A stretch of 64,000 bases of DNA from an uncultured Dehalococcoidia bacterium (GCA_958296245.1 OY282458.1:1260777-1324776); one strand, 5' to 3'. Counted from the first letter of the stretch, positions 2,392 to 61,119 are shown. Made by a program: numbers and translations. The notes: generated by a model from the letters alone, not told the origin.

Positions 2392-2455
2392 CAAGGTTAA
2401 ATCGGCCATTCCCGCGTCATGTCTCGTCAAGGCATGCAAGGGGAATGGTTGCTCG

Positions 2456-2851: not shown

Positions 2852-3149
2852 CTGAGACCGCCGCGCATGGCTCCGAAGGTTGACCCCAACCTGATTGACC
2901 CTTTACCACACCACCCTCTTAGATTCCTCACTCCGCCGGCGCTGCGTTCGGAATGACAGTTTTAGGACAGCTGGGCTGCGGGGAATGGGGAGGCTCTCAC
3001 GATTCGACTCATAGAGACTGAGCAGTTACAAGGAGACCTGGACGTTTGACAACGCCTGACGAGCTATGAGAACATGCGTACGCGGAACGACTAGAGCATA
3101 GGCCGCGTCGACGGATCGCGCGCCAGCCTACGGGACAGCTTGGTAGCTC

Positions 3150-3902: not shown

Positions 3903-3995
3903 AGGCAGGTATGAGCAACGCGCAATTCGGCGGCGACTTGTGTTCCGAGAAACCAGATTGAGGATAGCCAGAATGGCCTACGGTCGTTTTACAAC

Positions 3996-6637: not shown

Positions 6638-6698
6638 CCAACAACCGCAAGCACTTTGAGCGTTGTGCATGGGCTGACCATGCTATCGGTGTGATTCC

Positions 6699-9600
6699 TT
6701 GAACATCCTCCACGCCACGACCGATCCGCCGCTGCTGGCGCGCCTGAAGGAGATGCTGGGCAGTTCCTCGCGCGCCGACGTAGCCGTCGGCTACTTCTTC
6801 ATCAGCGGCTTCGAGGCCGTGGCCGACGACCTAGCGCGGCTGGACAAGGTGCGCGTCCTCGTCGGGCGCACCGATAGGCACGTCCTGGAGGAGGTCGCTT
6901 TGGGCCTTCAGCAGACGCAGGCGCTCCGCGCGCGCATCGACGCCGATGCGTTGGTACAGCGCAGCGAGCGAAGTCAGATCGCGCAACAGGCCGTCGCCCG
7001 CATCGCGGAGGGCGTATCCGTCCTACCTCAGGAGCGCGGGACCGAGTCCGCCGTGTCGAGGCTGCGGGACATGGTGGCCGTCAAGCGGGTCGAAGTGCGG
7101 GCATACCTGCGCAGTCCGCTGCACGCCAAGGCGTACCTGTGCTGGTACGACAACCACGCCGAACCCGGCGCCGCCGTCGTCGGCTCATCCAACCTCACGC
7201 TCGCCGGCTTCACCGGCAACACCGAGCTCAACGTGCGCGTCACCGGCGACGCGGAGATGTCGGCACTGCGCGACTGGTTTGACGCCCTGTGGGAAGACTC
7301 GGAGGACATCAGCGGCGCGCTGGTGACGGAGTTGGGGCGGTCGTGGGCGCTGGCGAAGACCCCGCCGTACCACGTCTATCTGAAGGCCCTCTACGAGCTC
7401 TACTACGCCGAGCTTGGCGGCGGCCCGTTGCCGGTCTCACCCCGCGACGAGGAGTTAGCCAACTTCCAGCTTGACGCCGTGAGCCTAGGCCTGTCCATGA
7501 TCGAGGCCCACGGCGGCTGCTATATCGGCGACGTGGTGGGTCTGGGCAAGACCTTCGTCGGCGCGGAGTTGCTGCGCCAGCTTCGAGTCAGCTATCCGAA
7601 CGACGGCCCGCCGCTCATCCTCTGCCCCGCCGGGCTGAAACCGATGTGGCAGGTCTTCAACGAGCGATTCGGCCTCGGGGCCGAGGTCGTGTCCCACAGC
7701 ATGATCACGGCCCCCCCGGAGGCCGAGTTCGACGAAGAGATGGGGCGTTACGTGGACGTCGACCCGTCCGGACACGGCATCGTGCTGGAGCGCGCTTACC
7801 CCAACCGAGGGCCGGTGCTTGTGGACGAAGCCCACAACTTCCGCAACGCGAACCGGCGGTCGAAGGGCCTGAGCGACTACCTGGAATCGGGCGATCATAA
7901 GGTGGTGCTGCTGAGCGCGACCCCCCAGAACCTGGGGCCGATGGACGTCTACCGCCAACTCAGGCTGTTCTTGGACGACACCGACCACGGCCTGAGCATA
8001 GAGCCCCTCAGCCTGGAGGCCTACTTCCGCAATGCCCAGAGGTGGCTGGAGTACCGCGCAGAGTACGAGAACTACGAGGCCGAGTTACGAATGCGGCGGG
8101 CCGGCGGCTCCATCGGGGCGTCCCCGGTGGAGCCCAACAAGCCGAACGTGCCCAAGGCGGAGATAGGCCAGGTGCTTTCCTCGGTCTTCATACGACGGAG
8201 GCGAAAGGACATACAGGACCTCTACGGCGACACGGCGATGGTCGACGGCAAGCCGGTGCGCTTCCCCGACCCGGTGCTGGACAACGAGGGGTACAGGCTC
8301 GACAAGGTGTACGCAAAGGCAGGCTCTCTCCAGGATCTGCAATGTCTGCTGCGCAAGCACAAGGCGGCGAGGTATCGTGCTACGGAGTACGTCAAGCCCG
8401 AGGTCAGGGAGAACCCCGAATACCGCGACCTGTTCCGGGCAAGGGACAGGATCGCCAGGCTGATGGGCGTGCTGCTCTTCAAGCGGTTGGAGTCGAGCAT
8501 CGAAGCGTTCCGCTCGACGCTGCACTCCCTGATGACCAGTAACCGCAACTTTCGGGAGGCGCTCGCGTCCGGCTATGTCCCCATCGGCAGCACGGCGACC
8601 CGCCTACTGTCCGGCCAGTCCTTCGACGTGGATGACCTCCTCGAGGTCCTGAGACAGGAGGAGGAGCGCCGCCGGCAGCTGGGCAGCGGGCGCGACAAGC
8701 TGGTACATGACTCCGGCGACTTCGAGGCCGACCGGTGGAAGGAAGACCTCGATGCGGACTTCGACCTGCTGAATGACGTCGTGCGTAGAGTCGAGGACAT
8801 CGGGCCGGGAGACGACGACAAGCTCCGGGCGCTGAGGGGTTTCCTGGACCGGCCCGAAGTTCGGGCGGGCAAGGTGCTGATCTTCTCCGAGGCCGAAAAG
8901 ACCGTCGAGTACCTGTACCGCGAGCTGAACCCCGGAGGCCGCGACCCGGAGATAACGCGGCTGACCGGGAGCACGAGCCACGATGCGGAGAACATCGTAA
9001 AGCGGTTTTCTCCAACGTGGAACTTGGCGCAGGGCGAGACGCTCCCCGGCCCTGAGGTCAGGGTGCTGTTGGCAACCGACGTCGTATCCGAGGGTCAGAA
9101 CCTACAGGATTGCGCTCGGGTGCTGAACTACGACCTGCACTGGAACCCGGTCCGGCTGATCCAGAGGTTTGGCCGCGTCGACCGCATCGGCGCCGAGCAT
9201 GAGGTGATCAACCTTCACAACATGTGGCCGGACGTGGAGGTCGACGCGGAGCTTTCGCTAACGGAACGGTTGCACGGGCGCATCCAATCGTTCCATGACC
9301 TGATAGGGCTGGATAGCAAGCTGCTGTCCGATGCCGAGAGGCTGAACGCCAACGCGATGTACCGCATCTACGAGGGCAAGAAGCTGCCTGAGATCGACGA
9401 CGGCCTGGACGAGGTGGCCGCGAATCAGCGGGCCATCACCCTGCTTCAGCGCATCCAGGAGGGCGACCCCGATCTGTGGCGTACGATCACGAGCTTGCCG
9501 GACGGGATACGGTCGGCCCTCCGGGTGCGGACCACGCAGGTTGAGGGTCCCAACGAGAGCTACGCGCAGAACGTACTGCCTATTGAAGGCGCGCAGGCGC

Positions 9601-10193
9601 CGCTCATGTCGCCGCAGACGTTCGCATCCATACCCTCGCCGTTCGACGACCCCAGGCAGGGTGAGACGCTGGTCCTGCTCAGCGCGGGAGGCGTCAGGAG
9701 CTGCTACGCCGTCGACGACAGCCTGCAGCCGCGCCCGATCAGCCCAGCCCAGTTCATAGCGGCGGCCGAATGCGGCCCCGAAACGCCGGCCGAGCAGCTG
9801 CCCGCAGACACGAACGAGCGTGTCATGGCGGCGTTCGAGGCCTTCAGAACGGACTTCCAGCGGCGGTTGGGCAGGGCCAGAAGGCCGCGCGATACCCGGG
9901 CGCGCCGGTACGTGTCACGCCATCTCGGCATAGCCATGCGCGAGGCCGGGCAGGACGGCGCGGCAATGCGCCGTATCGAGGTCCTCAGGCGGATATTCCT
10001 CGGGGACGTGTCGCCGCAGGTCGAGAGCGCCCTGGGTGAAATCAGGAATCTGAGGCTGGGAAGCCCAGTGTTGCTGACCCGGCTTGAGGCCCTGCGCGAG
10101 CGGTACCGCCTCAACCCCCGCGACGACTCCAAACGGTCACAGCCTCAGGAGCCGCAGATAATCCGCATTGTCTGCTCCGACGGCCTTGTGTGA
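6699..10193 (+). CDS. PLD (HKD) nuclease - SNF2-family helicase fusion protein
   Basis: 1164 aa. HKD-like LHAKAYLCWYD..VVGSSNLT at the N-terminus. SNF2 motifs VLVDEAHNFRN, LLSATPQN, LLATDVVSEGQNLQD, QRFGRVDRIG. Start is TTG 6699 or ATG ~6753. Confidence 0.85.
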   Translation: MNILHATTDPPLLARLKEMLGSSSRADVAVGYFFISGFEAVADDLARLDKVRVLVGRTDRHVLEEVALGLQQTQALRARIDADALVQRSERSQIAQQAVARIAEGVSVLPQERGTESAVSRLRDMVAVKRVEVRAYLRSPLHAKAYLCWYDNHAEPGAAVVGSSNLTLAGFTGNTELNVRVTGDAEMSALRDWFDALWEDSEDISGALVTELGRSWALAKTPPYHVYLKALYELYYAELGGGPLPVSPRDEELANFQLDAVSLGLSMIEAHGGCYIGDVVGLGKTFVGAELLRQLRVSYPNDGPPLILCPAGLKPMWQVFNERFGLGAEVVSHSMITAPPEAEFDEEMGRYVDVDPSGHGIVLERAYPNRGPVLVDEAHNFRNANRRSKGLSDYLESGDHKVVLLSATPQNLGPMDVYRQLRLFLDDTDHGLSIEPLSLEAYFRNAQRWLEYRAEYENYEAELRMRRAGGSIGASPVEPNKPNVPKAEIGQVLSSVFIRRRRKDIQDLYGDTAMVDGKPVRFPDPVLDNEGYRLDKVYAKAGSLQDLQCLLRKHKAARYRATEYVKPEVRENPEYRDLFRARDRIARLMGVLLFKRLESSIEAFRSTLHSLMTSNRNFREALASGYVPIGSTATRLLSGQSFDVDDLLEVLRQEEERRRQLGSGRDKLVHDSGDFEADRWKEDLDADFDLLNDVVRRVEDIGPGDDDKLRALRGFLDRPEVRAGKVLIFSEAEKTVEYLYRELNPGGRDPEITRLTGSTSHDAENIVKRFSPTWNLAQGETLPGPEVRVLLATDVVSEGQNLQDCARVLNYDLHWNPVRLIQRFGRVDRIGAEHEVINLHNMWPDVEVDAELSLTERLHGRIQSFHDLIGLDSKLLSDAERLNANAMYRIYEGKKLPEIDDGLDEVAANQRAITLLQRIQEGDPDLWRTITSLPDGIRSALRVRTTQVEGPNESYAQNVLPIEGAQAPLMSPQTFASIPSPFDDPRQGETLVLLSAGGVRSCYAVDDSLQPRPISPAQFIAAAECGPETPAEQLPADTNERVMAAFEAFRTDFQRRLGRARRPRDTRARRYVSRHLGIAMREAGQDGAAMRRIEVLRRIFLGDVSPQVESALGEIRNLRLGSPVLLTRLEALRERYRLNPRDDSKRSQPQEPQIIRIVCSDGLV

Positions 10194-27348: not shown

Positions 27349-28428
27349 ATGTCAAACACCTTCGGCCACCTGTTCCGGGTGACTACGTGGGGCGAGTCGC
27401 ATGGCGACGCTGTGGGCGTCGTCGTGGACGGCTGCCCGCCCAGGATCAGGATCGATTTGGACGACGTCCAGAGAGAGTTGGACCGCCGACGTCCGGGGCA
27501 GAGCGAGATCACCACGCAGCGCAGGGAGTCCGACCGCGCCGAGATCCTGTCGGGCGTGTTCGACGGCCTGACGCTCGGCACCCCGATACTGATCGGCGTA
27601 TGGAACGAGGACCAGCGTAGTAAGGACTACGAGCACATGCGCGCCAAGTTCCGCCCGTCCCACGCCGACTACACCTACCAGGCCAAGTACGGCATCAGGA
27701 ACTGGAAGGGCGGCGGCAGGGCCAGCGCCAGGGAGACCGTGGGGAGGGTGGCGGCGGGCGCCATCGCCCGGAAGGTCCTCGCCCAAGAGCACGGCGTGGA
27801 GATAGTGGGCTACGTCAAGCAGGTGTGGACGCTGGCGGCAGACGTAGACCCCGACACGGTGACCGCTGCCGAGGTCGAGTCGAACATCGTCCGATGCCCC
27901 GACCCGGACGCGGCGCCGCGCATGATAGACAGGATCAAGGAGGCGCGCAAAGACGGCGACTCCCTCGGCGGGGTGGTCGAGGCGGTGGCGCGCAACGTGC
28001 CCCCCGGTCTCGGAGAGCCGGTCTTCGATAAGCTGGAGGCCGAACTGGGGCGCGGCGTGCTCTCGCTGCCGGCGTGCAAGGGATTCGAGATCGGCTCGGG
28101 GTTCGGCGGCGTGACGATGACCGGATCGCAGCACAACGACCCGTTCTACAACGACCAAGGCCGCATCCGCACCCGAACCAACCGCTCCGGCGGCGTCCAG
28201 GGCGGCATCTCCAACGGCGAGAACATCATCATCCGCGCCGCCTTCAAGCCCACGGCGACCATACTCAGGCCCCAGGAGACGGTGGACGTCGAGGGCAACC
28301 CCACGACCCTGGAGGGCAGGGGCCGCCACGACCCGTGCGTCCTCCCCCGCGCCGTCCCCATGGTCGAGGCCATGATGGCCTTGGTGCTCATGGACCACAC
28401 CCTGCGCCAGCGAACGCAAGCGGGGTGA
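27349..28428 (+). CDS. aroC: Chorismate synthase
   Basis: [31 protein letters not shown].., ..RPGQS..T.R.E.D...ILSG.., ..[11 protein letters not shown].. The ORF's upstream 142 codons overlap the opposite-strand amidohydrolase and are rejected. Confidence 0.9.
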
Positions 28429-28689
28429 CACGGGCTCTGGCAACTGGCGGGCGAACCGAGCTAAACACGCTGGAGATGGGAGGCGTTGCCAAGTGATAGA
28501 TGACATCCTAATGAAAAAACAAGTCGCTATTTATGATCCCCCGAAGGTTGGCGAAACGCCTCAGAAACGCAAGGCATGGTGGCGGCCTTTCTGAGTGGGG
28601 GGATGGTGAGGCGCGCACGATTACCGCCGTCCAATACCGGGAAGGCTCACCCGCCTTGATAGTCGACCTGACAAGAGGAGGATTAGGCC

Positions 28690-30651
28690 GTGATCAAGAC
28701 CATCCTGCTCACGATTATAACCATACTTACCGGCACAGCCTGTGCTGTGTTTAGCCCCACGCCGACCAGCACGCCCAGACCCACCCCCACCAGCACGCCC
28801 ACCTCCGCGCCGGACAGGTATGCTCTGGTCGCGTTCTACCTCGCCACGGGCGGCGGGAGCTGGTTCATCGACATGAACTGGTTCCCCAACAAGCCCCTAG
28901 ACGAGTGGATGGGTGTCATCACTGACGACAGCGGTCGCGTCGCCGGATTGGTCCTCCGGAGTAACCGGTTGAGTGGTGAGATACCGTTGGAGCAGCTGGG
29001 CAACCTTACCAACCTGACAATATTGATCCTCTCGGAGAACCAGTTAAGCGGGGAGATACCGCCGGAGTTGGGCAGCCTCACCAATCTGACAGGTCTGGGG
29101 CTCTCGGGGAACCAGTTAAGCGGTGCGATACCGCCGGAGTTGGGCAGCCTCACCAATCTGACAATATTGTCCCTCTGGGAGAACCAGTTAAGCGGTGAGA
29201 TACCGTCGGAGTTGGGCAGCCTCACCAACCTGGAACGGCTCGACCTCGATAAGAACCAGTTGACTGGTAAGATACCGCCGGAGTTGGGCAGCCTCACCAA
29301 TCTGGAACGACTCTACCTCTCGGAGAACCAGTTGAGTGGTGCGATACCGACGGAGTTGGGCAGCCTCACCAATCTGACAATATTGTCCCTCTGGGAGAAC
29401 CAGTTGAGCGGGGAGATACCGTCGGGGTTGGGCAGTCTCACCAACCTGGAACGACTCTACCTCGATAAGAACCAGTTGAGCGGGGAGATACTGCCGGAGT
29501 TGGGCAGTCTCACCAACCTGGAACGACTCTACCTCGATAAGAACCAGTTGAGCGGGGAGATACTGCCGGAGTTGGGCAGCCTCTCCAACCTGGAAAGGCT
29601 CCGCCTCTCGGAGAACCGGTTGAGCGGGGAGATACCGCCGGAGTTGGGCAGCCTCATCAACTTGGAACGGCTCGACCTCTCGGAGAACCAGTTGAGCGGG
29701 GAGATACCGCCGGAGTTGGGCAGCCTGACCAATCTGGAACGACTCGACCTCTCGGAGAACGAGTTGATCGGTGCGATACCGCCGGAACTGGGCAGCCTGA
29801 CCAATCTGGAACGGCTTGACCTCTCGGAGAACGAGTTGATCGGTGAGATACCGTCGGAGTTGGGCAGGCTCCTCAATCTGGCGGAGCTGAAACTCTCTGG
29901 GAATCGGCTTACGGGGTGCATACCTGTGGGTTTGAAGTATATGCCTACCAGTGATCTTCCCAAGCTTGGCCTGGAGTTCTGCCAAGCGCCCACGCCGACG
30001 CCGGACAGGGATGTGCTGGCCGTGTTCTACGATGCCACGGGCGGCCCGAACTGGGTGGACAATACGAACTGGTTGAGCGACGCGCCCCTTTTCAAGTGGC
30101 GCGGCGTCACCACTGACGACAGCGGCCGCGTCACCAAATTGTCCCTCTCGGAGAACTGGTTGAGGGGGGAGATACCGCCGGAGTTGGGCAGCCTCTCCAA
30201 TCTGACAGCATTGTTCCTCTCGGAAAACCAGTTAAGCGGGGAGATACCGCCGGAACTGGGCAACCTCTCCAATCTGACAACATTGTTCCTCTCGGAGAAC
30301 TGGTTGAGTGGGGAGATACCGTCGGAGTTGGGCAGCCTCTCCAATCTGACAGTATTGTTCCTCTCGGAGAATCAGTTAAGCGGGGAGATACCGTCGGAAC
30401 TGGGCAGCCTCTCCAATCTGGAATGGCTGGAGCTCTGGGGGAACTGGTTGAGTGGTGCGATACCGCCGGAGCTGGGCAGCCTCCGCAATCTGGCGGAGCT
30501 GAAACTCTCTGGGAATCGGCTTACGGGGTGCATACCTGTGGGTTTGAGAGACGTGGATGCCAATGACTTTCCCGAGATGGGCTTGCCGTTCTGCCAAACG
30601 TCCAACACCCCCGCTAGCACGCCCATACCCACGCCGGCGCCTACCCGATAG
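28690..30651 (+). CDS. Secreted/lipoprotein-like leucine-rich repeat protein, plant-specific-type 24-aa LRRs (14 + 6 repeats)
   Basis: Signal-like MIKTILLTIITILTGTAC, a Pro/Thr linker, two modules each with an LRRNT-like cap (..ALVAFY.ATGG..W....NW....PL..W.GV..D..GRV..L.L), then repeats L.NL..L.L..N.LSGEIP.ELGS. Confidence 0.85.
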   Translation: MIKTILLTIITILTGTACAVFSPTPTSTPRPTPTSTPTSAPDRYALVAFYLATGGGSWFIDMNWFPNKPLDEWMGVITDDSGRVAGLVLRSNRLSGEIPLEQLGNLTNLTILILSENQLSGEIPPELGSLTNLTGLGLSGNQLSGAIPPELGSLTNLTILSLWENQLSGEIPSELGSLTNLERLDLDKNQLTGKIPPELGSLTNLERLYLSENQLSGAIPTELGSLTNLTILSLWENQLSGEIPSGLGSLTNLERLYLDKNQLSGEILPELGSLTNLERLYLDKNQLSGEILPELGSLSNLERLRLSENRLSGEIPPELGSLINLERLDLSENQLSGEIPPELGSLTNLERLDLSENELIGAIPPELGSLTNLERLDLSENELIGEIPSELGRLLNLAELKLSGNRLTGCIPVGLKYMPTSDLPKLGLEFCQAPTPTPDRDVLAVFYDATGGPNWVDNTNWLSDAPLFKWRGVTTDDSGRVTKLSLSENWLRGEIPPELGSLSNLTALFLSENQLSGEIPPELGNLSNLTTLFLSENWLSGEIPSELGSLSNLTVLFLSENQLSGEIPSELGSLSNLEWLELWGNWLSGAIPPELGSLRNLAELKLSGNRLTGCIPVGLRDVDANDFPEMGLPFCQTSNTPASTPIPTPAPTR

Positions 30652-30666
30652 ACCCGGACACCCGCG

Positions 30667-30792
30667 TCACGCCAACGACTCTTTCCCATACGACTCGTCC
30701 AGCAGGTCGGTTATGTAGCGCACCTGGACGGGCTTACCGGAGCGGCGGGCGCCTAGCTGAAGTTGGATGAGGCAGCCGGGGTTTGCCGTCGC
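30667..30792 (-). pseudogene. Duplicated 3'-terminal fragment (last 41 codons + stop) of glcF
   Basis: Near-identical to 32468-32593 (I saw one synonymous difference). No upstream coding continuation. Confidence 0.75.
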
Positions 30793-30922
30793 TTGCGCCC
30801 ACTTTGTTTAGAGTGTCCCTGAAATGGATTTGTGAAGGCTCTCCGAGGGACAGGGCCGCCGTCCAATACCGGGAAGGCTCACCCGCCTTGATAGTCGACC
30901 TGACAACGGGGAGGATTAGGCC

Positions 30923-32452
30923 GTGATCAAGACCATCCTGCTCACGATCATAACCATACTTACGGGCACAGCCTGTGCTGTGTTTAGCCCCACGCCGACC
31001 AGCACGCCCAGACCCACCCCCACCAGCACGCCCACCTCCGCGCCGGACAGGTATGCTCTGGTCGCGTTCTACCTCGCCACGGGTGGCGGGAGCTGGTTCA
31101 TCGACATGAACTGGTTCCCCAACAAGCCCCTGGACGAGTGGATGGGTGTCATCACTGACGACAGCGGTCGCGTCGCCGGATTGGTCCTCCGGAGTAACCG
31201 GTTGAGTGGTGAGATACCGTTGGAGCAGCTGGGCAACCTTACCAACCTGACAGGGCTGAACCTCTACGATAACAGGTTGAGTGGTGCGATACCGCCGGAG
31301 TTGGGCAGCCTCACCAATCTGACAATATTGGTCCTCTCGGAGAACCAGTTAAGCGGTGAGATACCGTCGGAGTTGGGCAGCCTCACCAACCTGGAACGGC
31401 TCGACCTCGATAAGAACCAGTTGACTGGTAAGATACCGCCGGAGTTGGGCAGCCTCACCAATCTGGAACGGCTCGACCTCTCGGGGAACGAGTTGATCGG
31501 TGAGGCGCCGTCGGAGTTGGGCAGCCTGACCAATCTGAGATTCCTAGCTCTCTCGGAGAACCAGTTGAGCGGGGAGATACCGCCGGAGTTGGGCAGCCTG
31601 ACCAATCTGGAACGGCTCGACCTCAATGGGAACCAGTTGAGTGGTGCGATACCGCCGGAACTGGGCAGCCTGACCAATCTGGAACGGCTCGACCTCTCGG
31701 GGAACCGGTTGAGTGGTGAGATACCGCCGGAGCTGGACAGGCTCCGCAATCTGGCGGAGCTGAAACTCTCTGGGAATCGGCTTACGGGGTGCATACCTGT
31801 GGGTTTGAGGTATATGCCTATCAGTGATCTTCCCAAGCTTGGCCTGGAGTTCTGCCAAACGCCCACGCCGACGCCGGACAGGGATGTGCTGGCCGTGTTC
31901 TACGATGCCACGGGCGGCCCGAACTGGGTGGACAACACGAACTGGTTGAGCGACGCGCCCCTTTTCAAGTGGCGCGGCGTCACCACTGACGACAGCGGCC
32001 GCGTCACCAAATTGTTCCTCTCGGAAAACCAGTTAAGCGGGGAGATACCGCCGGAGTTGGGCAGCCTCTCCAATCTGACAGCATTGTTCCTCTCGGAAAA
32101 CCAGTTAAGCGGGGAGATACCGCCGGAGTTGGGCAGCCTCTCCAATCTGACAACATTGTTCCTCTCGGAAAACCAGTTAAGCGGGGAGATACCGTCGGAG
32201 TTGGGCAGCCTCTCCAATCTGACAGTATTGTTCCTCTCGGAGAATCAGTTAAGCGGGGAGATACCGTCGGAACTGGGCAGCCTCTCCAATCTGGAATGGC
32301 TGAAACTCTCTGGGAATTGGCTTACGGGGTGCATACCTGTGGGTTTGAGAGACGTGGATGCCAATGACTTTCCCGAGATGGGCTTGCCGTTCTGCCAAAC
32401 GTCCAACACCCCCGCCAGCACGCCCATACCCACGCCGGCGCCTACCCGCTAG
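30923..32452 (+). CDS. Secreted/lipoprotein-like LRR protein, tandem paralog of 28690-30651 (9 + 5 repeats)
   Basis: N-terminal ~115 aa and C-terminal ~60 aa are essentially identical to the upstream paralog. 144 aa shorter, equal to six 24-aa repeats. Confidence 0.85.
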   Translation: MIKTILLTIITILTGTACAVFSPTPTSTPRPTPTSTPTSAPDRYALVAFYLATGGGSWFIDMNWFPNKPLDEWMGVITDDSGRVAGLVLRSNRLSGEIPLEQLGNLTNLTGLNLYDNRLSGAIPPELGSLTNLTILVLSENQLSGEIPSELGSLTNLERLDLDKNQLTGKIPPELGSLTNLERLDLSGNELIGEAPSELGSLTNLRFLALSENQLSGEIPPELGSLTNLERLDLNGNQLSGAIPPELGSLTNLERLDLSGNRLSGEIPPELDRLRNLAELKLSGNRLTGCIPVGLRYMPISDLPKLGLEFCQTPTPTPDRDVLAVFYDATGGPNWVDNTNWLSDAPLFKWRGVTTDDSGRVTKLFLSENQLSGEIPPELGSLSNLTALFLSENQLSGEIPPELGSLSNLTTLFLSENQLSGEIPSELGSLSNLTVLFLSENQLSGEIPSELGSLSNLEWLKLSGNWLTGCIPVGLRDVDANDFPEMGLPFCQTSNTPASTPIPTPAPTR

Positions 32453-32467
32453 ACCCGGACACCCGCG

Positions 32468-33769
32468 TCACGCCAATGACTCTTTCCCATACGACTCGTC
32501 CAGCAGGTCGGTTATGTAGCGCACCTGGACGGGCTTACCGGAGCGGCGGGCGCCTAGCTGAAGTTGGATGAGGCAGCCGGGGTTTGCCGTCGCGACCGTG
32601 CCGGCGTCCGTCTCTTCAACGGCGCTCATCTTCGAGTCGAGCAGGCGGAGCGAGAAGGCGCGTTGGGTAATGGCGTAAGCGCCCCCGGCGCCGCAGCAGC
32701 GGGACGCCCCGTCCATCTCCACCAGCTCCAGGCCCGGGATGGAGCGCAGAAGCTGACGCGGCGCCTCGGTAATCCGCTGCGCGTTGACCAGGTGACAAGA
32801 GTCCTGGTACGTGACCCTGCGGTCCAGGCGGCCCGTTGGGGGGACGAAGGGCAGCTCAGCCAAGAACTCGTGCACGTCCTTGACCACGTGCGCGAACCCC
32901 GCGGACCGCGCGCCGTATTCCTCGTCTCCCTGGAGCAACTCGTCGTACTCCTTCATCCGCGCGCCGCAACCCGCCGACGCCGTGACGACGGCATCGACGC
33001 CCGCCGCCTCGAAGACGTCGACGTTCCGGCGGGCCATCTTGCGCGCCGTGTCCAAGTCGCCGACGTGCGAGTGAATGGCGCCGCAGCAGACCTGCTCCTT
33101 GGGCACGACGACCTCGCAGCCGTTGCGGGACAGTACGCGCGCTACCGCTCTCATCTCGGGGCCGTTGACCAACGGCATTACGCACCCGGACAGCAGGGCC
33201 ACCCTGGCCCGGCGCTCTCCGCGTGCGGGGATCACCTGGCCCCCGGCCCTGAAGGGCGCTCCCGACACGGCCGGCGCCGACTCCTCCAAGTCCGCCAGCC
33301 TGCGCGAGAGAACCCTGAGCGCCCGCGTTCCGCGAACGGCCCTCTGGATGCCCAGGCGCTGGTAGAGCCGCAGGCCGCCCGTCAGAAGGCCCAATCTGCC
33401 CTGGTGGGGTAGGACGCCTTTCAGGATGGCCGAGGCGGCTACCCTGGGCAGCAGGCTCGGTTTCCTGTGGCGCTCGACCTCTGCCGTCACGGTTTCGATC
33501 AGCCTTCCGTACGGAACGCCCGACGGGCACGCCGTCTCACATGCCCGGCACTGGATGCACAAGTCCCAGTGCCGGGAGACCGTGGGGCTCGGCCCGATAC
33601 GCCCCTCGTTGACGGCCTTCATCAGCGCGATTCTGCCGCGCGGAGACTCGGTCTCCAACCCCGTCTCCAAGTACGTGGGGCACGCCTGCAGGCAGAAGCC
33701 GCAGTGGACGCACTTGTAGAGGTCCTCCTCGAAGTCGGGGCCAAAGGACGGCGGCGCGGACACCATCAT
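32468..33769 (-). CDS. glcF: Glycolate oxidase iron-sulfur subunit / (Fe-S)-binding CCG-domain protein
   Basis: CVHCGFCLQACP and CIQCRACETACP ferredoxin motifs, plus two CCG motifs (VCCGAIH, RCCGAGG). Start set at ATG 33769, giving an ATGA overlap with the glcE stop. Confidence 0.85.
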   Translation of the reverse strand: MMVSAPPSFGPDFEEDLYKCVHCGFCLQACPTYLETGLETESPRGRIALMKAVNEGRIGPSPTVSRHWDLCIQCRACETACPSGVPYGRLIETVTAEVERHRKPSLLPRVAASAILKGVLPHQGRLGLLTGGLRLYQRLGIQRAVRGTRALRVLSRRLADLEESAPAVSGAPFRAGGQVIPARGERRARVALLSGCVMPLVNGPEMRAVARVLSRNGCEVVVPKEQVCCGAIHSHVGDLDTARKMARRNVDVFEAAGVDAVVTASAGCGARMKEYDELLQGDEEYGARSAGFAHVVKDVHEFLAELPFVPPTGRLDRRVTYQDSCHLVNAQRITEAPRQLLRSIPGLELVEMDGASRCCGAGGAYAITQRAFSLRLLDSKMSAVEETDAGTVATANPGCLIQLQLGARRSGKPVQVRYITDLLDESYGKESLA

Positions 33770-47918: not shown

Positions 47919-49445
47919 CTACCTGCTCTCCAGGTACAGCGGGGCGAGCATGTTGTCCACCGGGACGTAGTCGTCGGTCAGGACCACGCCCGGGTCCTCC
48001 TTCAGCCACAGTGCGAAGTCGGCGCCCGGCATCAGCTCGGTAGTGGACGCCCTGCCGGCCCGATTAGCTGCGCTGTTCAGGTCGTAGGCGGTGAAGGGCT
48101 GGTTGGCCCCGGCGATGACGTAGGTGTGCCGGCTGGGACTGTCCCAATTCGAGTCGCCGCGTATGACGTAGACGTAATCGAACGTCTCCTTGAGGGTCGA
48201 CGCAAACGAGCGGAGGAACCGGCCGTCCTGACGCTCGTCCACGACGTTTGCCACGTAGATCCCGTCCTCCTTCAGCAGCGCCGCGACATCTTCGTTGAAC
48301 TCCTTCGTCGTGAGGTGGTACGGCACGGACAGGTCGTTGAAGGCGTCGCCCACGACGAGGTCGTACTTGTCGTGAGGGAGCCGGGGTATCTTCATCCGCG
48401 CGTCCTCGTTGTAGCTGATGATGCCGGTGTCCGGTCGTAGGCCGAACTGTTCGAGGGCGACCTCCGTCACCGCCGGGTCTATCTCGATCACCTCGAGCGT
48501 GCTTTCCGGGTAAGTATGCTCGAGGTACCGCGGCATCGTGTAGCCGCCCCCGCCGATGAACAGCACCCTCATCCCGGGCTCCGTCTCCGCTATGTAGTCG
48601 GCCATGTCGGCAAACACCTTCTCGTAGGTGTACACCAGGTGCGCCGGATCGCTCAGGTCGGTGAAGCTGTGCCTGAGCGCGTCCAGGGTCAGGATGCGAA
48701 TCTCCCGACCGTCGCGCACCTCGTCCTTCACCTTGATGCAGAAGTAGGCGCTCTCCTCCAGGCAAGGGGACCCCAACGCGCTCCTGGCAAACCCGATTCC
48801 CACGAGGCCAGCGACTACCGCCAGCAGAGCTACGCCCACCGGGGCTATGTTGCGCGTCCCGGGGCGCCAGAGGTTGCCAAGGGCGAGGGCGAGGAGGACG
48901 AGCACAAGCGACACGACGACGAGTATCGTCCGCGTGCCCCACCACTGGATGAGCACGAATCCGGTCAGAAAGGTGCCCAGGATGCTGCCCGCGGTGGACA
49001 GAGCGTATATCCTGCCCACCACGTTGCCGGTCTTCTGGAGGTCTTTCAGCTCCAGCTTGATCACCACCGGCGTGACCATCCCCAGGATGATGCTCGGCGC
49101 GATGAAGAGCGACGTCACGATCAGGACGATGCGGGGGAGTATGGGGACGCTGTCGAACAGGTCGGCGACCGCCGCGAATATGGGCAGGATCGCGAGGCTC
49201 GATATGCCCCCGGCCAGCAGTATCAGGCCCAACGTGGTCGGGTGCGGCCTCCAGTCGGCGATCCGCCCCCCCAGGTAGTTGCCCAGGCTGATGCCCGCTA
49301 GTACGATGCCTATGATGCTCGTCCAAGTATAGAGCGATACCCCGATCACCGGCGCCAGGATCCTGCCGGCGACGATCTCGATGACCAGGATGCACGCGCT
49401 GGCCGTGAATACTACGACGTAAGGCTTGAGCGACGCGATTGACAT
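47919..49445 (-). CDS. Fused membrane domain / spermidine synthase-like (polyamine aminopropyltransferase fold) protein
   Basis: 508 aa. N-terminal ~200 aa polytopic. C-terminal ..VLFIGGGGYTMPRY..IEIDP.V......F.. ..DLVVGDAFND... Confidence 0.75.
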   Translation of the reverse strand: MSIASLKPYVVVFTASACILVIEIVAGRILAPVIGVSLYTWTSIIGIVLAGISLGNYLGGRIADWRPHPTTLGLILLAGGISSLAILPIFAAVADLFDSVPILPRIVLIVTSLFIAPSIILGMVTPVVIKLELKDLQKTGNVVGRIYALSTAGSILGTFLTGFVLIQWWGTRTILVVVSLVLVLLALALGNLWRPGTRNIAPVGVALLAVVAGLVGIGFARSALGSPCLEESAYFCIKVKDEVRDGREIRILTLDALRHSFTDLSDPAHLVYTYEKVFADMADYIAETEPGMRVLFIGGGGYTMPRYLEHTYPESTLEVIEIDPAVTEVALEQFGLRPDTGIISYNEDARMKIPRLPHDKYDLVVGDAFNDLSVPYHLTTKEFNEDVAALLKEDGIYVANVVDERQDGRFLRSFASTLKETFDYVYVIRGDSNWDSPSRHTYVIAGANQPFTAYDLNSAANRAGRASTTELMPGADFALWLKEDPGVVLTDDYVPVDNMLAPLYLESR

Positions 49446-49782
49446 TTAAGCTGTCTCCCTCCCTGCCGTCCTTCCCGTGAAGGCGGGGATCCGTCCCAAT
49501 GGCTCGGGCCAGGCATCCTGCCTTCCGCCTCGGCCCGGCAGCCGCGCCGCCCATGCGGGCGCGGCTCGCAGAGCAATGATAGCCTAAAGTGCCGGGTAGT
49601 AATATACTCATCCAAGAATCCATCACCGCCATCGGTACGGGAATCGGTATGAGGCGCCGCGCCGCAAGGCGGTGTGCAACCCTCCCCCCTGCCGCAGGAC
49701 GCCGCCGCCATTTCACCCCCGGCGTGCTGGCCGCCTGCATGAGCGATAACACGTCCAAGCGCAGCCCAAGGAGGACCCCGCT

Positions 49783-50949
49783 ATGAAAGTCACCCGGATA
49801 AAGACGTTCCACGTCGCCGGAGAGAACGAGCGCAGCTACTTCATCGTCAAGGTGGAGACCGACGCCGGGGTCCACGGATTGGGCGAGTCCGGCGCGCTCT
49901 TCTGGGGGCCGGCCATCGAGAAGGCGGTCGAGCACCTCTCGGAGCTGGTCGTCGGCCAAGACCCGTTCAGCACCGAGAGGCTGTGGCAGCACATGTTCAG
50001 AGGCGGCTTCTTCCCCGCCGGACTGGTCTATAGCTGCGCCATAAGCGCCATCGACGTCGCGCTCTGGGACATCAAGGGCAAGGCGCTGGGTATGCCGGTG
50101 TACAAGCTGCTGGGAGGGCCGGTCCGCGATAAGGTCGTCTGCTACCCGCACACGCAGGGCGAGGACCTCGGCGAGTTGGTCGAGAACAGCCTCAAAGCCG
50201 TGGACGAGGGGTGGAAGTTCGTGCGGTGGGGCCAGCCCGAGACCTCGCCGAGGTGGGAGGAAAAGGAGGAGGGCCGCCTTGAGCCGGTCCACTCCATGGA
50301 CGCCGCCGAGGAGCAGATGGCCCGCGTGCGGGAGGCCGTGGGCCCGGACATACAGATATGCTTCGACGTGCATACCAGGCTCGACACCGCCCACGCAGTC
50401 TCCCTATGCGGCCGGCTGGAGAGGTACAGACCCTTCTTCATCGAGGACCCGCTGCGCTCCGAGAACCCGGCGAGCTACCGGACGCTCGCGCGGCACGTCA
50501 GGTTGCCCATAGCGGCCGGCGAGCAGTGGTCGAGCAAATGGCACTTCAGGGAGGTCATAGAGGAGGAACTGATCAGCTACGCTAGGATAGACGTCTGCAA
50601 CGTCGGCGGCCTGACCGAGGCGCTCAAGGTCGCCCACTGGTGCGAGACCCACTACATAGACATCGCTCCCCACAACCCACTCGGCCCCGTGAGCGCCGCC
50701 GCGTGCGTCGCCCTCTGCATGGCCACGACCAACGTCGGCGTGCAGGAGATGCCGCGCAGGCCGGGAACTACGGACACCGCCGTCTTCCCGCAGCAGATCG
50801 GATGGATGGACGGCTACGCCTTCGCGCCGGACGCGCCCGGCCTCGGCGTCGAGATGGACGAGGCAGCCGCAGAGGCGGCGCGCACCGCAAAGCCGGGCGG
50901 CTGGCCGCCGCTGCTGCGCCGCAACGACGGGGCGTTTACGAACTGGTAG
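49783..50949 (+). CDS. Enolase superfamily (mandelate racemase/D-galactonate dehydratase-like) enzyme
   Basis: MKVTRIKTFHV.., ..ALWDIKGKALGMPVYKLLGG.., ..FFIEDP.., ..AGEQW... Confidence 0.85.
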   Translation: MKVTRIKTFHVAGENERSYFIVKVETDAGVHGLGESGALFWGPAIEKAVEHLSELVVGQDPFSTERLWQHMFRGGFFPAGLVYSCAISAIDVALWDIKGKALGMPVYKLLGGPVRDKVVCYPHTQGEDLGELVENSLKAVDEGWKFVRWGQPETSPRWEEKEEGRLEPVHSMDAAEEQMARVREAVGPDIQICFDVHTRLDTAHAVSLCGRLERYRPFFIEDPLRSENPASYRTLARHVRLPIAAGEQWSSKWHFREVIEEELISYARIDVCNVGGLTEALKVAHWCETHYIDIAPHNPLGPVSAAACVALCMATTNVGVQEMPRRPGTTDTAVFPQQIGWMDGYAFAPDAPGLGVEMDEAAAEAARTAKPGGWPPLLRRNDGAFTNW

Positions 50950-51012: not shown

Positions 51013-51933
51013 ATGACCGACATGAGAGCCTACGAGGACAATCTCATTCCACCTAGATCGGACGGTCTGACCGGCAGCATCACTTGGCGGTCAGAGGATG
51101 GCGAGTCCTATGTGTACTACGGGGACAGCCTGGAGTTCATGGCCGCCATGCCCGAGGGTAGCGTTGATTGTGTGTGGACGGACCCGCCGTACTTCCTGTC
51201 CAACGACGGCATCACATGCGTTGCGGGCCGGATGGTGCAGGTCAACAAGGGAGAGTGGGATAGAAGCCAAGGCCTCGAGAACGATCATGCGTTCAATCGC
51301 GAGTGGCTGTCTCAATGCTACCGCGTCCTCAAGCCCGCGGGTACGATCTGGGTCACAGGCACACTCCACGTCTATCTCAGCGTGGGCATGGCGATGCTCC
51401 AGACAGGCTACCGCATCCTCAACGATATAATTTGGCAGAAGCCGAACCCCCCGCCCAATCTCGGCTGTCGGTGCTTCACCCATTCGACGGAGACCGTTCT
51501 ATGGGCGACAAAGGCTCGGAAGGGTAGCAAGCACCGCTATACCTTCCACTATGAACGGATGCGTGAGGAAAACGGTGGGAAGCAGATGAAGAACGTCTGG
51601 CAGTTCCCACCAGCAGGGCGGGCTGAGAAGAGATACGGCAAACACCCTACCCAGAAGCCCGTTGCCTTGATCGAGCGCTGCCTTCGGGCTAGCACGAACC
51701 AGAGGGACTTGATATTAGACCCATTCGCGGGATCGGGCTCGACCGGAGTCGCCGCACTCGGAATGGGGCGCAAATTCATCGGCTGCGAGCGACAACAGGA
51801 GTACGTACAGCTCACAACCAGACGTATGGAAGCTGTTACTGGGTATACTCCAGAGCCCGTATATGTGAATGGCTCTAGCCAACTTCCACAACCCAGGCTC
51901 TTGGAGTCCAAGGCCAAGCTGTCAGGGGGATAG
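51013..51933 (+). CDS. Beta-class DNA methyltransferase (N6-adenine or N4-cytosine)
   Basis: Motif IV VWTDPPYFLSNDG is N-terminal and motif I ILDPFAGSGSTGVAA is C-terminal, which is the beta-class order. Confidence 0.85.
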   Translation: MTDMRAYEDNLIPPRSDGLTGSITWRSEDGESYVYYGDSLEFMAAMPEGSVDCVWTDPPYFLSNDGITCVAGRMVQVNKGEWDRSQGLENDHAFNREWLSQCYRVLKPAGTIWVTGTLHVYLSVGMAMLQTGYRILNDIIWQKPNPPPNLGCRCFTHSTETVLWATKARKGSKHRYTFHYERMREENGGKQMKNVWQFPPAGRAEKRYGKHPTQKPVALIERCLRASTNQRDLILDPFAGSGSTGVAALGMGRKFIGCERQQEYVQLTTRRMEAVTGYTPEPVYVNGSSQLPQPRLLESKAKLSGG

Positions 51934-51935
51934 AG

Positions 51936-52547
51936 ATGGAGAGACCCGAAGCCATACGCCGCATACGTGAACTGAAGGGGGAGAATCTCCGCGCTCTGGC
52001 TGACGAGCACGGGATAACCGTCTTCAAGAAAGGCAAGTTGAACAAGGGTTGGGCGGGACAGACTATGGAGCGGTGTCTGGGTCTACCTCTGAGCTCGTCT
52101 CGTAATCCTAACGCCGGCTCCTGGGAGTTGAAGGTTGTTCCTCTGAGGTATCGTAGGGATGGCAAGCTTGTCCCTAAGGAGACAATGTGGATTACGTCGA
52201 TCACCCCTCGGGATGTGGCAGGCTGCCCATTCAAACGCAGCCATCTCCTGGGAAAACTGGCGAAGATGCTTATCGTGGGCAGAGTATTCGAAAGCAAGGA
52301 AGAAACGCACTCAGTTATCTATGGCGCGGCCTCCTTCGACCTTGACGATGCTGACATGTACCAGTTGGTGAAGGCTGACTACGACTTGGTTAGAAAGGCT
52401 ATCCGAACAACCGGATTCGAATCGCTGACTGGCAGAATGGGAGTGTTGATCCAGCCTCGGACCAAAGGGGTAGGGCACGGCAGTACTACAAGAGCGTTCT
52501 ATGCAAGGAAGGCATTTATATCACACGTGTTTGGACTGCGTCTGTGA
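51936..52547 (+). CDS. MutH/Sau3AI (MvaI/BcnI-related) family type II restriction endonuclease
   Basis: ..NKGWAGQTMERCLG..(13)..WELKVVPL..G...KETMWITSI.., ..GVLIQPRTKG....RAFYARKAF.. parallels E. coli MutH ..DKGWIGVLLEIWLG..GVELKTIPV..ETTFVCV....YLQIRPKA...RGFYLKKNF (recalled). Starts 2 nt after the MTase stop. Confidence 0.75.
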   Translation: MERPEAIRRIRELKGENLRALADEHGITVFKKGKLNKGWAGQTMERCLGLPLSSSRNPNAGSWELKVVPLRYRRDGKLVPKETMWITSITPRDVAGCPFKRSHLLGKLAKMLIVGRVFESKEETHSVIYGAASFDLDDADMYQLVKADYDLVRKAIRTTGFESLTGRMGVLIQPRTKGVGHGSTTRAFYARKAFISHVFGLRL

Positions 52548-61096: not shown

Positions 61097-61119
61097 GCCC
61101 GTACAGGAGTACCACGGCA

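What the first reader, a model, noticed from the sequence alone, without database searches (positions are those of the whole stretch)
28624..32593. Tandem segmental duplication of a secreted plant-type LRR protein gene; the copies differ by exactly six 72-bp repeats
Seen:
- Unit 1 (28624-30792, 2169 bp) and unit 2 (30857-32593, 1737 bp) are near-identical at both ends. The shared ends cover ~66 bp upstream, the signal peptide, the Pro/Thr linker, the first cap and the C-terminus.
- The length difference is 432 bp, equal to 6 x 72 bp, i.e. six 24-aa LRRs. I count 14+6 repeats against 9+5.
- The repeat consensus L.NL..L.L..N.LSGEIP.ELGS, together with the caps ..FY.ATGG..W....NW....PL..W.GV..D..GRV..L, matches the plant-specific LRR class and its LRRNT_2-like cap.

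Known: the 24-residue LxxLxxLxLxxNxLSGxIPxxLGx repeat is characteristic of plant receptor-kinase ectodomains and PGIPs and is uncommon in bacteria. Inference: this is a recently duplicated surface or secreted binding protein whose repeat number is changing by unequal recombination, possibly a variable adhesin or receptor. Collapsed or expanded repeats from assembly are a caveat.
Basis: partly seen in the sequence, partly recalled or inferred. Interest (0 to 1): 0.55.

Follow-up and report, generated by a model that had tools for sequence, protein, structure and literature searches.

The report
Duplicated bacterial plant-type LRR lipoprotein genes

Summary
There are two + strand genes, 28690-30651 (653 aa) and 30923-32452 (509 aa). 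They lie in duplicated segments 28624-30792 and 30856-32593 with sharp boundaries. Non-array parts are 94-99% identical. The copies carry 14+6 and 9+5 LRRs of 24 residues, a net difference of 6 x 72 bp that comes from several in-register events.

Each protein has a lipobox-type leader (Cys18), a Pro/Thr tether and two modules. A module is a Cys-free Trp-rich N-cap, plant-specific-class LRRs and a two-Cys C-cap. The repeats fit the PS consensus at every conserved position. An AlphaFold model (pLDDT 90.9) and PDB sequence and fold searches hit plant receptor-kinase ectodomains first.

Pfam LRRNT_2 does not match the caps. The type is not rare in bacteria: more than 7,700 homologous clusters were found, and the cap alone finds 10,125 cluster representatives.

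The host is a Dehalococcoidia MAG. The pair fills a variable aroC-glcF slot that holds other cargo in the nearest relatives. The duplication copied the last 126 nt of glcF.

The likely role is a lipid-anchored surface binding protein diversifying by duplication and repeat gain and loss. The ligand is unknown. Read-level validation was not possible.

The parts
28624..30792 (+). Duplicated segment, copy 1 (2169 bp)
   Evidence: blastn and segment alignments show sharp homology boundaries
28676..28681 (+). Shine-Dalgarno AGGAGG, 8 nt before the GTG start of gene 1
   Evidence: read directly from the sequence
28690..30651 (+). LRR lipoprotein gene 1, 653 aa, 14+6 LRRs
   Evidence: ORF list; repeat register; Pfam LRR_1/4/8/14
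28690..28743 (+). Leader with lipobox-type motif (MIKTILLTIITILTGTA|C, Cys18)
   Evidence: matches the PROSITE-style lipobox regular expression; low pLDDT for residues 1-28 of the copy-2 model
28744..28812 (+). Pro/Thr-rich tether (aa 19-41)
   Evidence: translation; 12/24-bp tandem repeat found by TRF
28813..29982 (+). Gene 1 module 1: Trp-rich N-cap, 14 PS-LRRs, 2-Cys C-cap (aa 42-431)
30004..30594 (+). Gene 1 module 2: N-cap, 6 PS-LRRs, C-cap (aa 439-635)
30667..30792 (-). Dead copy of the last 126 nt of glcF (stop plus 41 codons), carried along by the duplication
   Evidence: the 141-nt stretch 30652-30792 that contains this fragment is 140/141 identical to 32453-32593, and 32468-32593 is the 3' end of the intact glcF ORF
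30793..30855 (.). Unique 63-bp junction filler between the two copies
   Evidence: no other match in the window or in 83 related loci
30856..32593 (+). Duplicated segment, copy 2 (1738 bp)
30910..30914 (+). Shine-Dalgarno GGAGG, 8 nt before the GTG start of gene 2
   Evidence: read directly from the sequence
30923..32452 (+). LRR lipoprotein gene 2, 509 aa, 9+5 LRRs
   Evidence: AlphaFold model with pLDDT 90.9
31046..31855 (+). Gene 2 module 1 (aa 42-311): N-cap, 9 PS-LRRs, C-cap
31877..32395 (+). Gene 2 module 2 (aa 319-491): N-cap, 5 PS-LRRs, C-cap
27349..28428 (+). aroC (chorismate synthase), conserved left flank of the variable slot
   Evidence: Pfam Chorismate_synt, E = 7e-142; synteny in L001 and L002
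32468..33769 (-). glcF-like glycolate oxidase Fe-S subunit, conserved right flank; its 3' end lies inside copy 2
   Evidence: ORF; 86% identical orthologues in Dehalococcoidia MAGs

Best explanation
Shown: the region holds two tandem paralogues of one accessory gene in a Dehalococcoidia (Chloroflexota) chromosome.

Shown: each product starts with a Sec-type leader ending in a lipobox-like motif (Cys18). A disordered Pro/Thr tether follows, then two LRR solenoid modules. Each module has a Cys-free Trp-rich N-cap, 5-14 plant-specific-class 24-residue LRRs and a C-cap with two cysteines. The protein ends in a Pro/Thr tail.

Inferred mechanism: the protein is lipid-anchored to the outer face of the membrane and held away from it by the tether. 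It binds a macromolecular ligand, most likely a protein, through the concave beta-sheet faces of the two solenoids. Nearly all repeat-to-repeat variation lies at positions 2, 3, 5, 7, 8 and 10 of LxxLxLxxNxL, which fits this.

Evolution, shown from sequence: an ancestral single gene next to glcF was duplicated as a ~2.2-kb segment that included the last 126 nt of glcF. The two copies are joined by 63 bp of filler. Afterwards the arrays changed by several in-register 72-bp or 216-bp gains and losses. Examples are the block A03-A05 duplicated as A06-A08, the copy A08 to A09, and the B05 indel. The result is two receptors of different length and surface.

The ligand and the biological role are not known. 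Candidates are adhesion, substrate or partner capture, and host interaction as a 'eukaryote-like protein' if the bacterium is a sponge symbiont.
For: Gene structure and duplication.

Leader and module counts: lipobox pattern with Cys18, two N-caps, two C-caps and 20 or 14 LRR cores.

PS-class consensus and concave-face variability: compared with LxxLxLxxNxL(t/s)GxIPxxLGxLxx in PMC2946307.

Structure:
- PDB phmmer top hits are MIK2, GSO1, FLS2 and ERL2 (E = 1e-162 to 1e-128). The best bacterial LRR, Leptospira LIC11098, scores 2e-61.
- The AlphaFold model has pLDDT 90.9 and pTM 0.81, strand-strand-helix units and a disordered stretch at residues 1-28.
- All of the top 50 Foldseek PDB hits are plant LRR-RK ectodomains.

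Family: homologues share the cap-LRR-cap module. P0016 and P0050 have canonical lipoboxes, and bacterial genes lie next to P0001, P0040 and P0090.

Host and accessory status:
- glcF is 86% identical to Dehalococcoidia MAGs.
- The aroC-glcF slot holds different cargo in L001 and L002.
- No LRR gene occupies that slot in any of 80 related loci.
- GC is 59% in the LRR genes against 68% in the flanks.

Literature: LRR genes were reported as eukaryote-like proteins in sponge-associated SAR202 and Caldilineae (PMC6306507).
Against: - No experimental or expression evidence exists, and the ligand is unknown.
- Position -3 of the lipobox is Gly rather than Leu, so cleavage by signal peptidase I (a soluble secreted protein) is possible. 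SignalP and LipoP were not available.
- No close orthologue exists in the databases. The best full-length identity is 56-59%. The N-terminal 88 aa find nothing. Repeat-number polymorphism and conservation of the pair therefore could not be checked.
- Host association of this MAG is not established.
- Assembly correctness of a 4-kb repeat-rich region could not be verified with reads.
Confidence: 0.72

Rival explanations
1. Assembly artefact. Either a single gene was falsely duplicated, or two strain alleles were stitched in tandem, or repeat arrays were collapsed or expanded by the assembler.
For: The region is 4 kb of 72-bp repeats that are 78-96% identical. The source is a metagenome-type genome. 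No identical protein is on record elsewhere.
Against: - The copies differ at scattered sites throughout, with segment identities of 94-99%.
- They are joined by a unique 63-bp filler plus a truncated glcF fragment. An overlap-based misjoin would not create either.
- Both ORFs are intact and in frame, and each has its own SD and GTG start.
- All length differences are whole 72-bp units.
Confidence: 0.08
2. Recent horizontal acquisition from a plant or alga. Under this reading the genes are captured fragments of a eukaryotic LRR receptor ectodomain.
For: The best solved-structure matches are plant LRR-RKs. GC is 9 points below the flanks. HGT of PS-LRRs between plants and bacteria has been proposed (Miyashita et al. 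2013, cited in PMC5122149).
Against: - Identity to plant ectodomains is only about 24-37%.
- The N-cap lacks the plant Cys pair and does not match LRRNT_2.
- The leader is a bacterial lipoprotein type.
- Thousands of bacterial proteins share the same cap-LRR-cap module at 40-60% identity, in bacterial gene contexts.
Any transfer would therefore be ancient and at the level of the family, not of this locus.
Confidence: 0.04
3. Injected or secreted effector, or toxin-immunity protein. Candidates are an XopAC/AvrAC-like or internalin-like virulence factor, or an Imm-LRR immunity protein of a polymorphic toxin system.
For: NCBIfam gives partial LRR-only matches to XopAC, XopAE, InlA and LIC_11051. 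In other bacteria the same module is fused to RHS/DUF6443 toxins. LRR immunity proteins are known (PMC3482391).
Against: - All NCBIfam scores are far below the curated cut-offs, for example 160 against 450 for XopAC and 137 against 1600 for InlA.
- No Fic, LPXTG, toxin, RHS or secretion-system gene is present in the proteins or next to them.
- Immunity proteins are cytoplasmic, whereas these carry an export leader.
- The neighbours are housekeeping genes: aroC and glcDEF.
Confidence: 0.06
4. Decaying accessory DNA. Under this reading the duplicated genes are neutral, unexpressed cargo in a hotspot, and the repeat changes are mutational noise without functional meaning.
For: The slot is variable among relatives. 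No orthologues were found. No sigma-70-type promoter or terminator was detected in the region.
Against: - Both 1.5-2 kb ORFs are intact despite repeat instability, and all indels preserve the frame and the register.
- Strong SD sequences are kept in both copies.
- In aa 1-112, synonymous codon differences outnumber non-synonymous ones 5 to 1.
- Hydrophobic core positions are invariant across 28 repeats.
Confidence: 0.1

Closest known systems
Plant-specific (PS) class LRR ectodomains of plant receptor kinases and PGIPs (e.g. MIK2, GSO1, FLS2, ERL1/2, BRI1)
   Same: 24-residue repeat with LxxLxLxxNxLSGxIPxxLGxLxN. Predicted strand-strand-helix unit. Best sequence and fold matches in the PDB. The W-x-G-V...V-x-L-x-L end of the N-cap aligns.
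   Different: No transmembrane helix or kinase. The N-cap has no Cys pair and does not match Pfam LRRNT_2. The C-cap is NxLxGC[IV]Px2Lx(n)C rather than the plant Cx6C. The leader is a bacterial lipoprotein type. Two short capped modules stand in place of one long solenoid. Identity is about 24-37%.
Bacterial PS-type LRR proteins (Miyashita, Kuroki, Kretsinger and Matsushima 2013, Nat Sci 5:580, cited in PMC5122149) and the large unnamed 'leucine-rich repeat domain-containing protein' family with Trp-rich caps
   Same: The same cap-LRR-cap module at 40-60% identity. Multi-module architecture with 1-20 modules. Frequent lipoboxes and Pro/Thr linkers.
   Different: This pair is a small two-module version without extra domains, whereas relatives carry FN3, Big_2, RHS, BACON or T9SS domains. 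Cap 1 is divergent: no 5-mer-sharing relative was found. I could not read the 2013 paper itself.
Eukaryote-like repeat proteins (LRR, ANK, TPR) of sponge-associated Chloroflexi (PMC6306507)
   Same: An LRR gene in a marine-type Dehalococcoidia-class genome. Some glcF relatives are sponge-derived MAGs, judging by isolate names. An NHL-repeat protein is also in the window.
   Different: Host association of this genome is not shown. That paper does not define LRR class, caps or lipoprotein anchoring, and no function has been tested for LRR-type ELPs.
Leptospira LRR lipoproteins (LIC11098, LIC12759, LIC10831) and Listeria internalins
   Same: Bacterial surface or secreted LRR proteins. The Leptospira members are the best bacterial PDB hits.
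   Different: The repeats differ, being mostly 22-23 residues of typical or SDS22-like class. Scores are far lower, 2e-61 against 1e-162. Internalin models are far below cut-off. No LPXTG or inter-repeat Ig domain is present.

Membership tests
Plant-specific (PS) LRR class | Repeat length of 23-25 residues | tested here: met
   All 34 units are 24 aa (72 nt), except LRR1 of module 1, which carries one extra residue
Plant-specific (PS) LRR class | Consensus LxxLxLxxNxL(t/s)GxIPxxLGxLxx (PMC2946307, PMC4030839) | tested here: met
   The consensus of 28 internal repeats is L[TE]xLxLSENQLSGEIPPELGSLTN. L4, L6, N9, L11, G13, L19, L22 and N24 are invariant. L1, I15, P16 and G20 are kept in 26-27 of 28 repeats
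Plant-specific (PS) LRR class | beta-beta-3(10) structural unit; closest structures are PS-LRR proteins | tested here: met
   The AlphaFold model shows a strand-strand-helix pattern in each repeat (predicted only). The top 50 Foldseek hits and the top 40 phmmer hits in the PDB are plant LRR-RKs
Pfam LRRNT_2 (PF08263) N-terminal cap | Significant match to the Pfam profile | tested here: not met
   No hit in either full protein at E <= 0.01, nor in the isolated caps at E <= 10
Pfam LRRNT_2 (PF08263) N-terminal cap | Conserved Cys pair flanking W-x-G-V (C-x-W-x-G-V-x-C) | tested here: not met
   The caps read DEWMGVITD and FKWRGVTTD and contain no Cys. Only the WxGV...V.L.L portion aligns to GSO1, FLS2 and RGFR1
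Plant LRR receptor kinase / receptor-like protein | C-terminal transmembrane helix, with or without a kinase domain | tested here: not met
   The proteins end in an 18-aa Pro/Thr-rich tail after module 2. No kinase or other Pfam domain was found
Bacterial lipoprotein (Lgt/LspA substrate) | Lipobox: no charged residue in the h-region, [LIVMFWSTAG]2-[LIVMFYSTAGCQ]-[AGS]-C, Cys within residues 15-35, K/R near the N-terminus | tested here: met
   The regular expression matches both proteins with Cys18. Position -3 is Gly, which is non-canonical. The pattern was recalled from PROSITE PS51257, and no dedicated predictor was run
Bacterial lipoprotein (Lgt/LspA substrate) | Actual lipidation and cleavage | not testable with these tools
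   Needs SignalP/LipoP and, decisively, globomycin sensitivity or mass spectrometry
XopAC/AvrAC, XopAE and XopL type III effectors | Score above the NCBIfam cut-off; effector domain (Fic or E3 ligase); T3SS host | tested here: not met
   Scores are 159.8 against 450, 141.3 against 600 and 73.3 against 500. Matches are LRR-only and no extra domain is present
Class 1 internalins | Score above the NCBIfam cut-off; 22-aa LRR plus Ig-like inter-repeat region | tested here: not met
   InlA scores 137 against 1600 and InlH 73 against 1050. The repeat is 24 aa
Bacterial cap-PS-LRR-cap module family (unnamed) | Trp-rich N-cap [ALxxLYxATxGxxWxxxxNWxxxxPxxxWxGV], PS-LRRs, C-cap NxLxGC[IV]PxxL...C | tested here: met
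   Both caps are present twice in each protein. Both caps appear in the consensus of the 42-sequence alignment. The cap alone retrieves 10,125 cluster representatives
Sponge-symbiont eukaryote-like proteins (ELPs) | Encoded by a host-associated symbiont and enriched relative to free-living relatives | not testable with these tools
   The source of the window is unknown. Relatives include both seawater and sponge MAGs, judging by isolate names

The most novel reading that the evidence does not exclude
The pair could be a rapidly diversifying, lineage-specific surface receptor system of a host-associated (for example sponge-symbiotic) Dehalococcoidia. Duplication plus repeat shuffling would tune recognition of a eukaryotic host or partner molecule. 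In that case the huge, uncharacterised bacterial cap-PS-LRR-cap module family, rather than plants, might be the evolutionary reservoir of the 'plant-specific' LRR ectodomain.
Probability: 0.1. Interest if true: 0.55.

Novelty: new member of a known kind. Interest (0 to 1): 0.22.

Why it matters
By itself the finding matters little. Tandem duplication and unequal recombination are the standard way LRR genes evolve, and PS-type LRRs in bacteria have been described before.

It has modest value in three respects:
- It gives a cleanly resolved example of the duplication. A neighbouring-gene fragment acts as a marker, and the events can be traced unit by unit.
- It shows that the 'plant-specific' LRR class, with a distinctive Cys-free cap, forms a very large and essentially unstudied bacterial surface-protein family. 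That bears on the debate over the origin of plant LRR ectodomains.
- It points to candidate surface or host-interaction proteins in uncultivated Dehalococcoidia.

Tried and rejected
- Exact-sequence look-ups of both proteins, including an M-start version, found nothing.
- A scan of JGI metagenomes with the N-terminal 88 aa found no relative. A word-indexed protein search with the same 88 aa also found none. Repeat-number polymorphism in populations therefore could not be examined.
- A cluster-member look-up of ten NCBI-sourced homologues returned no names or accessions, so no taxonomy came from that route.
- I suspected that unit D05 of copy 2 is a B05/B06 recombinant. Rejected: of 40 informative sites, 39 are B06-type and one is B05-type. 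The B05 difference is a clean one-unit indel.
- The 63-bp junction filler has no significant match in the window or in 83 loci, so its origin is unexplained.
- The sigma-70 promoter and terminator scan was uninformative, at or below shuffle expectation.
- The minus-strand ORFs overlapping the arrays were treated as frame artefacts of a GC-rich repeat.
- The Imm-LRR, effector and internalin readings were rejected (see the rival explanations).


Full report
**1. Checking the observation**

The window has two + strand ORFs, 28690-30651 (653 aa) and 30923-32452 (509 aa). Both start at a GTG that lies 8 nt after an AGGAGG or GGAGG motif.

Written in register, copy 1 has 14 + 6 units of 24 residues and copy 2 has 9 + 5. 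A motif count gives 20 and 14 LRR cores, with two N-caps and two C-caps in each protein. Tandem Repeats Finder reports 72-bp arrays at 78-96% matches and a 216-bp higher-order period.

blastn of unit against unit gives E = 0. Identity by segment:

| Segment | Identity |
|---|---|
| 66/67 nt upstream | 97% |
| codons 1-88 | 98.5% |
| LRR1 | 94% |
| end of module 1 to cap 2 | 95.8% |
| last LRR plus tail | 94% |
| 141 nt after the stop | 140/141 |

Homology ends abruptly at 28624/30856 and at 30792/32593. The length difference is 432 nt, or 6 x 72.

**2.

- The 141 nt shared after the stop codons consist of 15 nt of spacer plus the last 126 nt of the convergent glcF gene. This glcF stretch is intact at 32468-32593. 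Copy 1 thus carries a dead glcF fragment at 30667-30792.
- The copies are separated by 63 bp (30793-30855) that match nothing else in the window or in 83 related loci.
- The six-repeat difference is a net figure. A unit-by-unit DNA identity matrix and a collinear unit alignment give these matches: A01=C01 (94%), A04=C03 (96%), A05=C04 (99%), A11=C06 (96%), A14=C09 (97%), B01-B04=D01-D04 (92-100%) and B06=D05 (99%). A02, A06-A10 and B05 have no partner in copy 2, and C05 has none in copy 1.
- Within copy 1, A03-A05 resemble A06-A08 at 89-93%, and A08 resembles A09 at 94%. These are a three-unit block duplication and a single-unit duplication.
- All changes are whole units in register. My idea that D05 is a B05/B06 chimera was rejected: 39 of 40 informative sites are B06-type.

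**3. What the proteins are**

Pfam finds only LRR families: LRR_1, LRR_4, LRR_8 and LRR_14.

The consensus of 28 internal repeats is L[TE]xLxLSENQLSGEIPPELGSLTN. L4, L6, N9, L11, G13, L19, L22 and N24 are invariant, and L1, I15, P16 and G20 are nearly so. Variation is concentrated at positions 2, 3, 5, 7, 8 and 10, the solvent-exposed side of the concave beta-strand. This matches the published plant-specific (PS) consensus LxxLxLxxNxL(t/s)GxIPxxLGxLxx of 23-25 residues (PMC2946307, PMC4030839).

A phmmer search of the PDB is led by plant receptor-kinase ectodomains. MIK2 scores 1.8e-162, followed by GSO1, FLS2, ERL2 and PEPR1. The best bacterial LRR structure, Leptospira LIC11098, scores 2e-61.

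An AlphaFold model of copy 2, built on a 42-sequence alignment, has mean pLDDT 90.9 and pTM 0.81. Residues 1-28 are disordered, and each repeat shows a strand-strand-helix pattern. All of its top 50 Foldseek hits in the PDB are plant LRR-RK ectodomains, with E = 1e-27 to 1e-21. TM-scores are low, 0.26-0.47. I attribute this, as inference, to the two-module geometry.

**4. Caps and leader**

The N-caps are DRxxLVAFYxATGGxxWxxxxNWxxxxPLxxWxGVxTDDSGRVxxLxL. They contain no cysteine. They do not match Pfam LRRNT_2, either in the full proteins or as isolated caps at E <= 10. Only the final W-x-G-V...V-x-L-x-L part aligns with the end of the plant caps of GSO1, FLS2 and RGFR1. 'LRRNT_2-like' is thus only loosely true.

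Each module ends in NxLTGCIPVGLRx(n)LGLxFC, which has two cysteines.

The leader MIKTILLTIITILTGTAC fits a PROSITE-style lipobox pattern with Cys18 (the pattern was recalled from memory). Position -3 is Gly, so signal peptidase I cleavage is not excluded. Homologues P0016 (LMAC) and P0050 (LLAC) have canonical lipoboxes. Nineteen of the 120 best homologues match the pattern.

**5. Genomic context**

The flanking genes are housekeeping: an MFS transporter, an amidohydrolase and chorismate synthase on the left. On the right are glcF, two FAD-linked oxidase subunits, an epimerase and a Wzy_C (O-antigen ligase) domain protein.

glcF is 86% identical to two Dehalococcoidia MAGs (L001, L002), and all 80 loci kept are Chloroflexota. 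L001 and L002 keep the order amidohydrolase-aroC-[gap]-glcF. In L001 the gap holds small toxin-antitoxin-like genes. In L002 it holds an AAA ATPase with a partner gene. Neither gap holds an LRR gene.

A tblastn of copy 2 against all 80 loci finds LRR-like sequence only in L011 and L012, about 9 kb from glcF. The window contains only these two LRR genes. The LRR genes have 59% GC against 68% in aroC and glcF. The pair is therefore accessory cargo in a variable slot.

**6. How common the family is**

A full-length search scored only the 8,000 candidates sharing most words with the query, and 7,765 of these clusters (90% identity) reach E <= 1e-20. Many sit on contigs of 1-5.6 Mb. The best identity is only 56-59%.

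The hits inspected share the same cap-LRR-cap module. Three inspected hits have bacterial neighbours such as ABC transporter, two-component system and glycine-cleavage genes.

The 53-residue cap 2 alone retrieves 10,125 representatives of 50%-identity clusters at E <= 0.001, and 2,871 at E <= 1e-10. Single proteins carry up to 20 caps.

In annotated plasmid records the module occurs in Hymenobacter, Chondrinema, Flammeovirga, Fulvitalea and Bacteroides. There it is fused to DUF6443/RHS, MBG, T9SS-sorting or BACON domains.

PS-LRRs in bacteria have been discussed before: Miyashita et al. 2013, cited in PMC5122149. I could not read that paper. LRR genes were also noted as eukaryote-like proteins in sponge-associated SAR202 and Caldilineae (PMC6306507).

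**7. Mechanism**

Shown: the gene structure, the duplication history, the repeat class, the predicted fold and the accessory location.

Inferred: the proteins are exported, probably lipid-anchored at Cys18, and held off the membrane by the Pro/Thr tether. They bind a macromolecular ligand through the concave faces of two short solenoids. Duplication and unit gain or loss change the length and surface of the binding arcs.

Two observations argue for maintained function. In codons 1-112, synonymous codon differences outnumber non-synonymous ones 5 to 1. All indels preserve the reading frame.

The ligand and the role are unknown.

**8. Rival explanations**

- Assembly artefact: unlikely, because of the unique junction, the glcF fragment, the scattered differences and the intact frames. 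It cannot be tested without reads.
- Recent capture from a plant: contradicted by the bacterial leader, the Cys-free caps and the much closer bacterial relatives.
- Effector, internalin or immunity-protein readings: these fail the curated NCBIfam cut-offs by wide margins, and the proteins lack the defining extra domains or context.
- Neutral decaying cargo: possible, but disfavoured by the intact ORFs.

**9. Verdict**

This is a real and well-described feature with a largely correct interpretation. It is a new member of a known and very large kind. Interest is low to moderate.

Noticed in passing
window 835-10193 (+): A lower-GC stretch (49% GC at 4001-6000) looks like a defence or mobile island. 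It holds an AAA_15/AAA_21 ATPase (835-2391), a DUF5131 protein (3150-3902), a 671-aa ORF with an N-terminal GNAT domain (3996-6011) and a 1164-aa PLDc_2 + Helicase_C protein (6699-10193).
   Followed up: partly
window 51013-52547 (+) and 62146-63291 (+): An N6/N4 DNA methylase is followed directly by a MutH/Sau3AI-like endonuclease, which is probably a type II restriction-modification pair. A separate C-5 cytosine methyltransferase lies at 62146-63291.
   Followed up: partly
window 60439-62139 (+): A 566-aa NHL-repeat beta-propeller protein, which is another 'eukaryote-like' repeat protein in the same window.
   Followed up: no
window 48064-50394 (-): A 776-aa ORF with unusually low GC3 (0.52, against about 0.8 for its neighbours) and no Pfam match.
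   Followed up: no
L001 11300-13700; L002 11300-15700: The aroC-glcF gap is a cargo hotspot in the nearest relatives. L001 has small DUF4160- or HicAB-like ORFs and a NUDIX-like ORF, as I read the translations. L002 has a 378-aa AAA ATPase with an overlapping 227-aa partner gene, a defence-system-like pair.
   Followed up: partly
window 30793-30855: The 63-bp filler at the duplication junction has no detectable source in the window or in the related loci. Its origin is unexplained.
   Followed up: yes
P0123 (2901 aa), P0124, P0150 and others: Giant proteins carry up to 20 copies of the same Trp-rich cap, so they are chains of many short capped PS-LRR modules. This architecture appears uncharacterised.
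   Followed up: partly
window 28836-32433 (-), several ORFs: Long antisense ORFs of 100-265 aa run through the LRR arrays. They are repetitive and are best explained as frame artefacts of the GC-rich repeat, not as genes.
   Followed up: no
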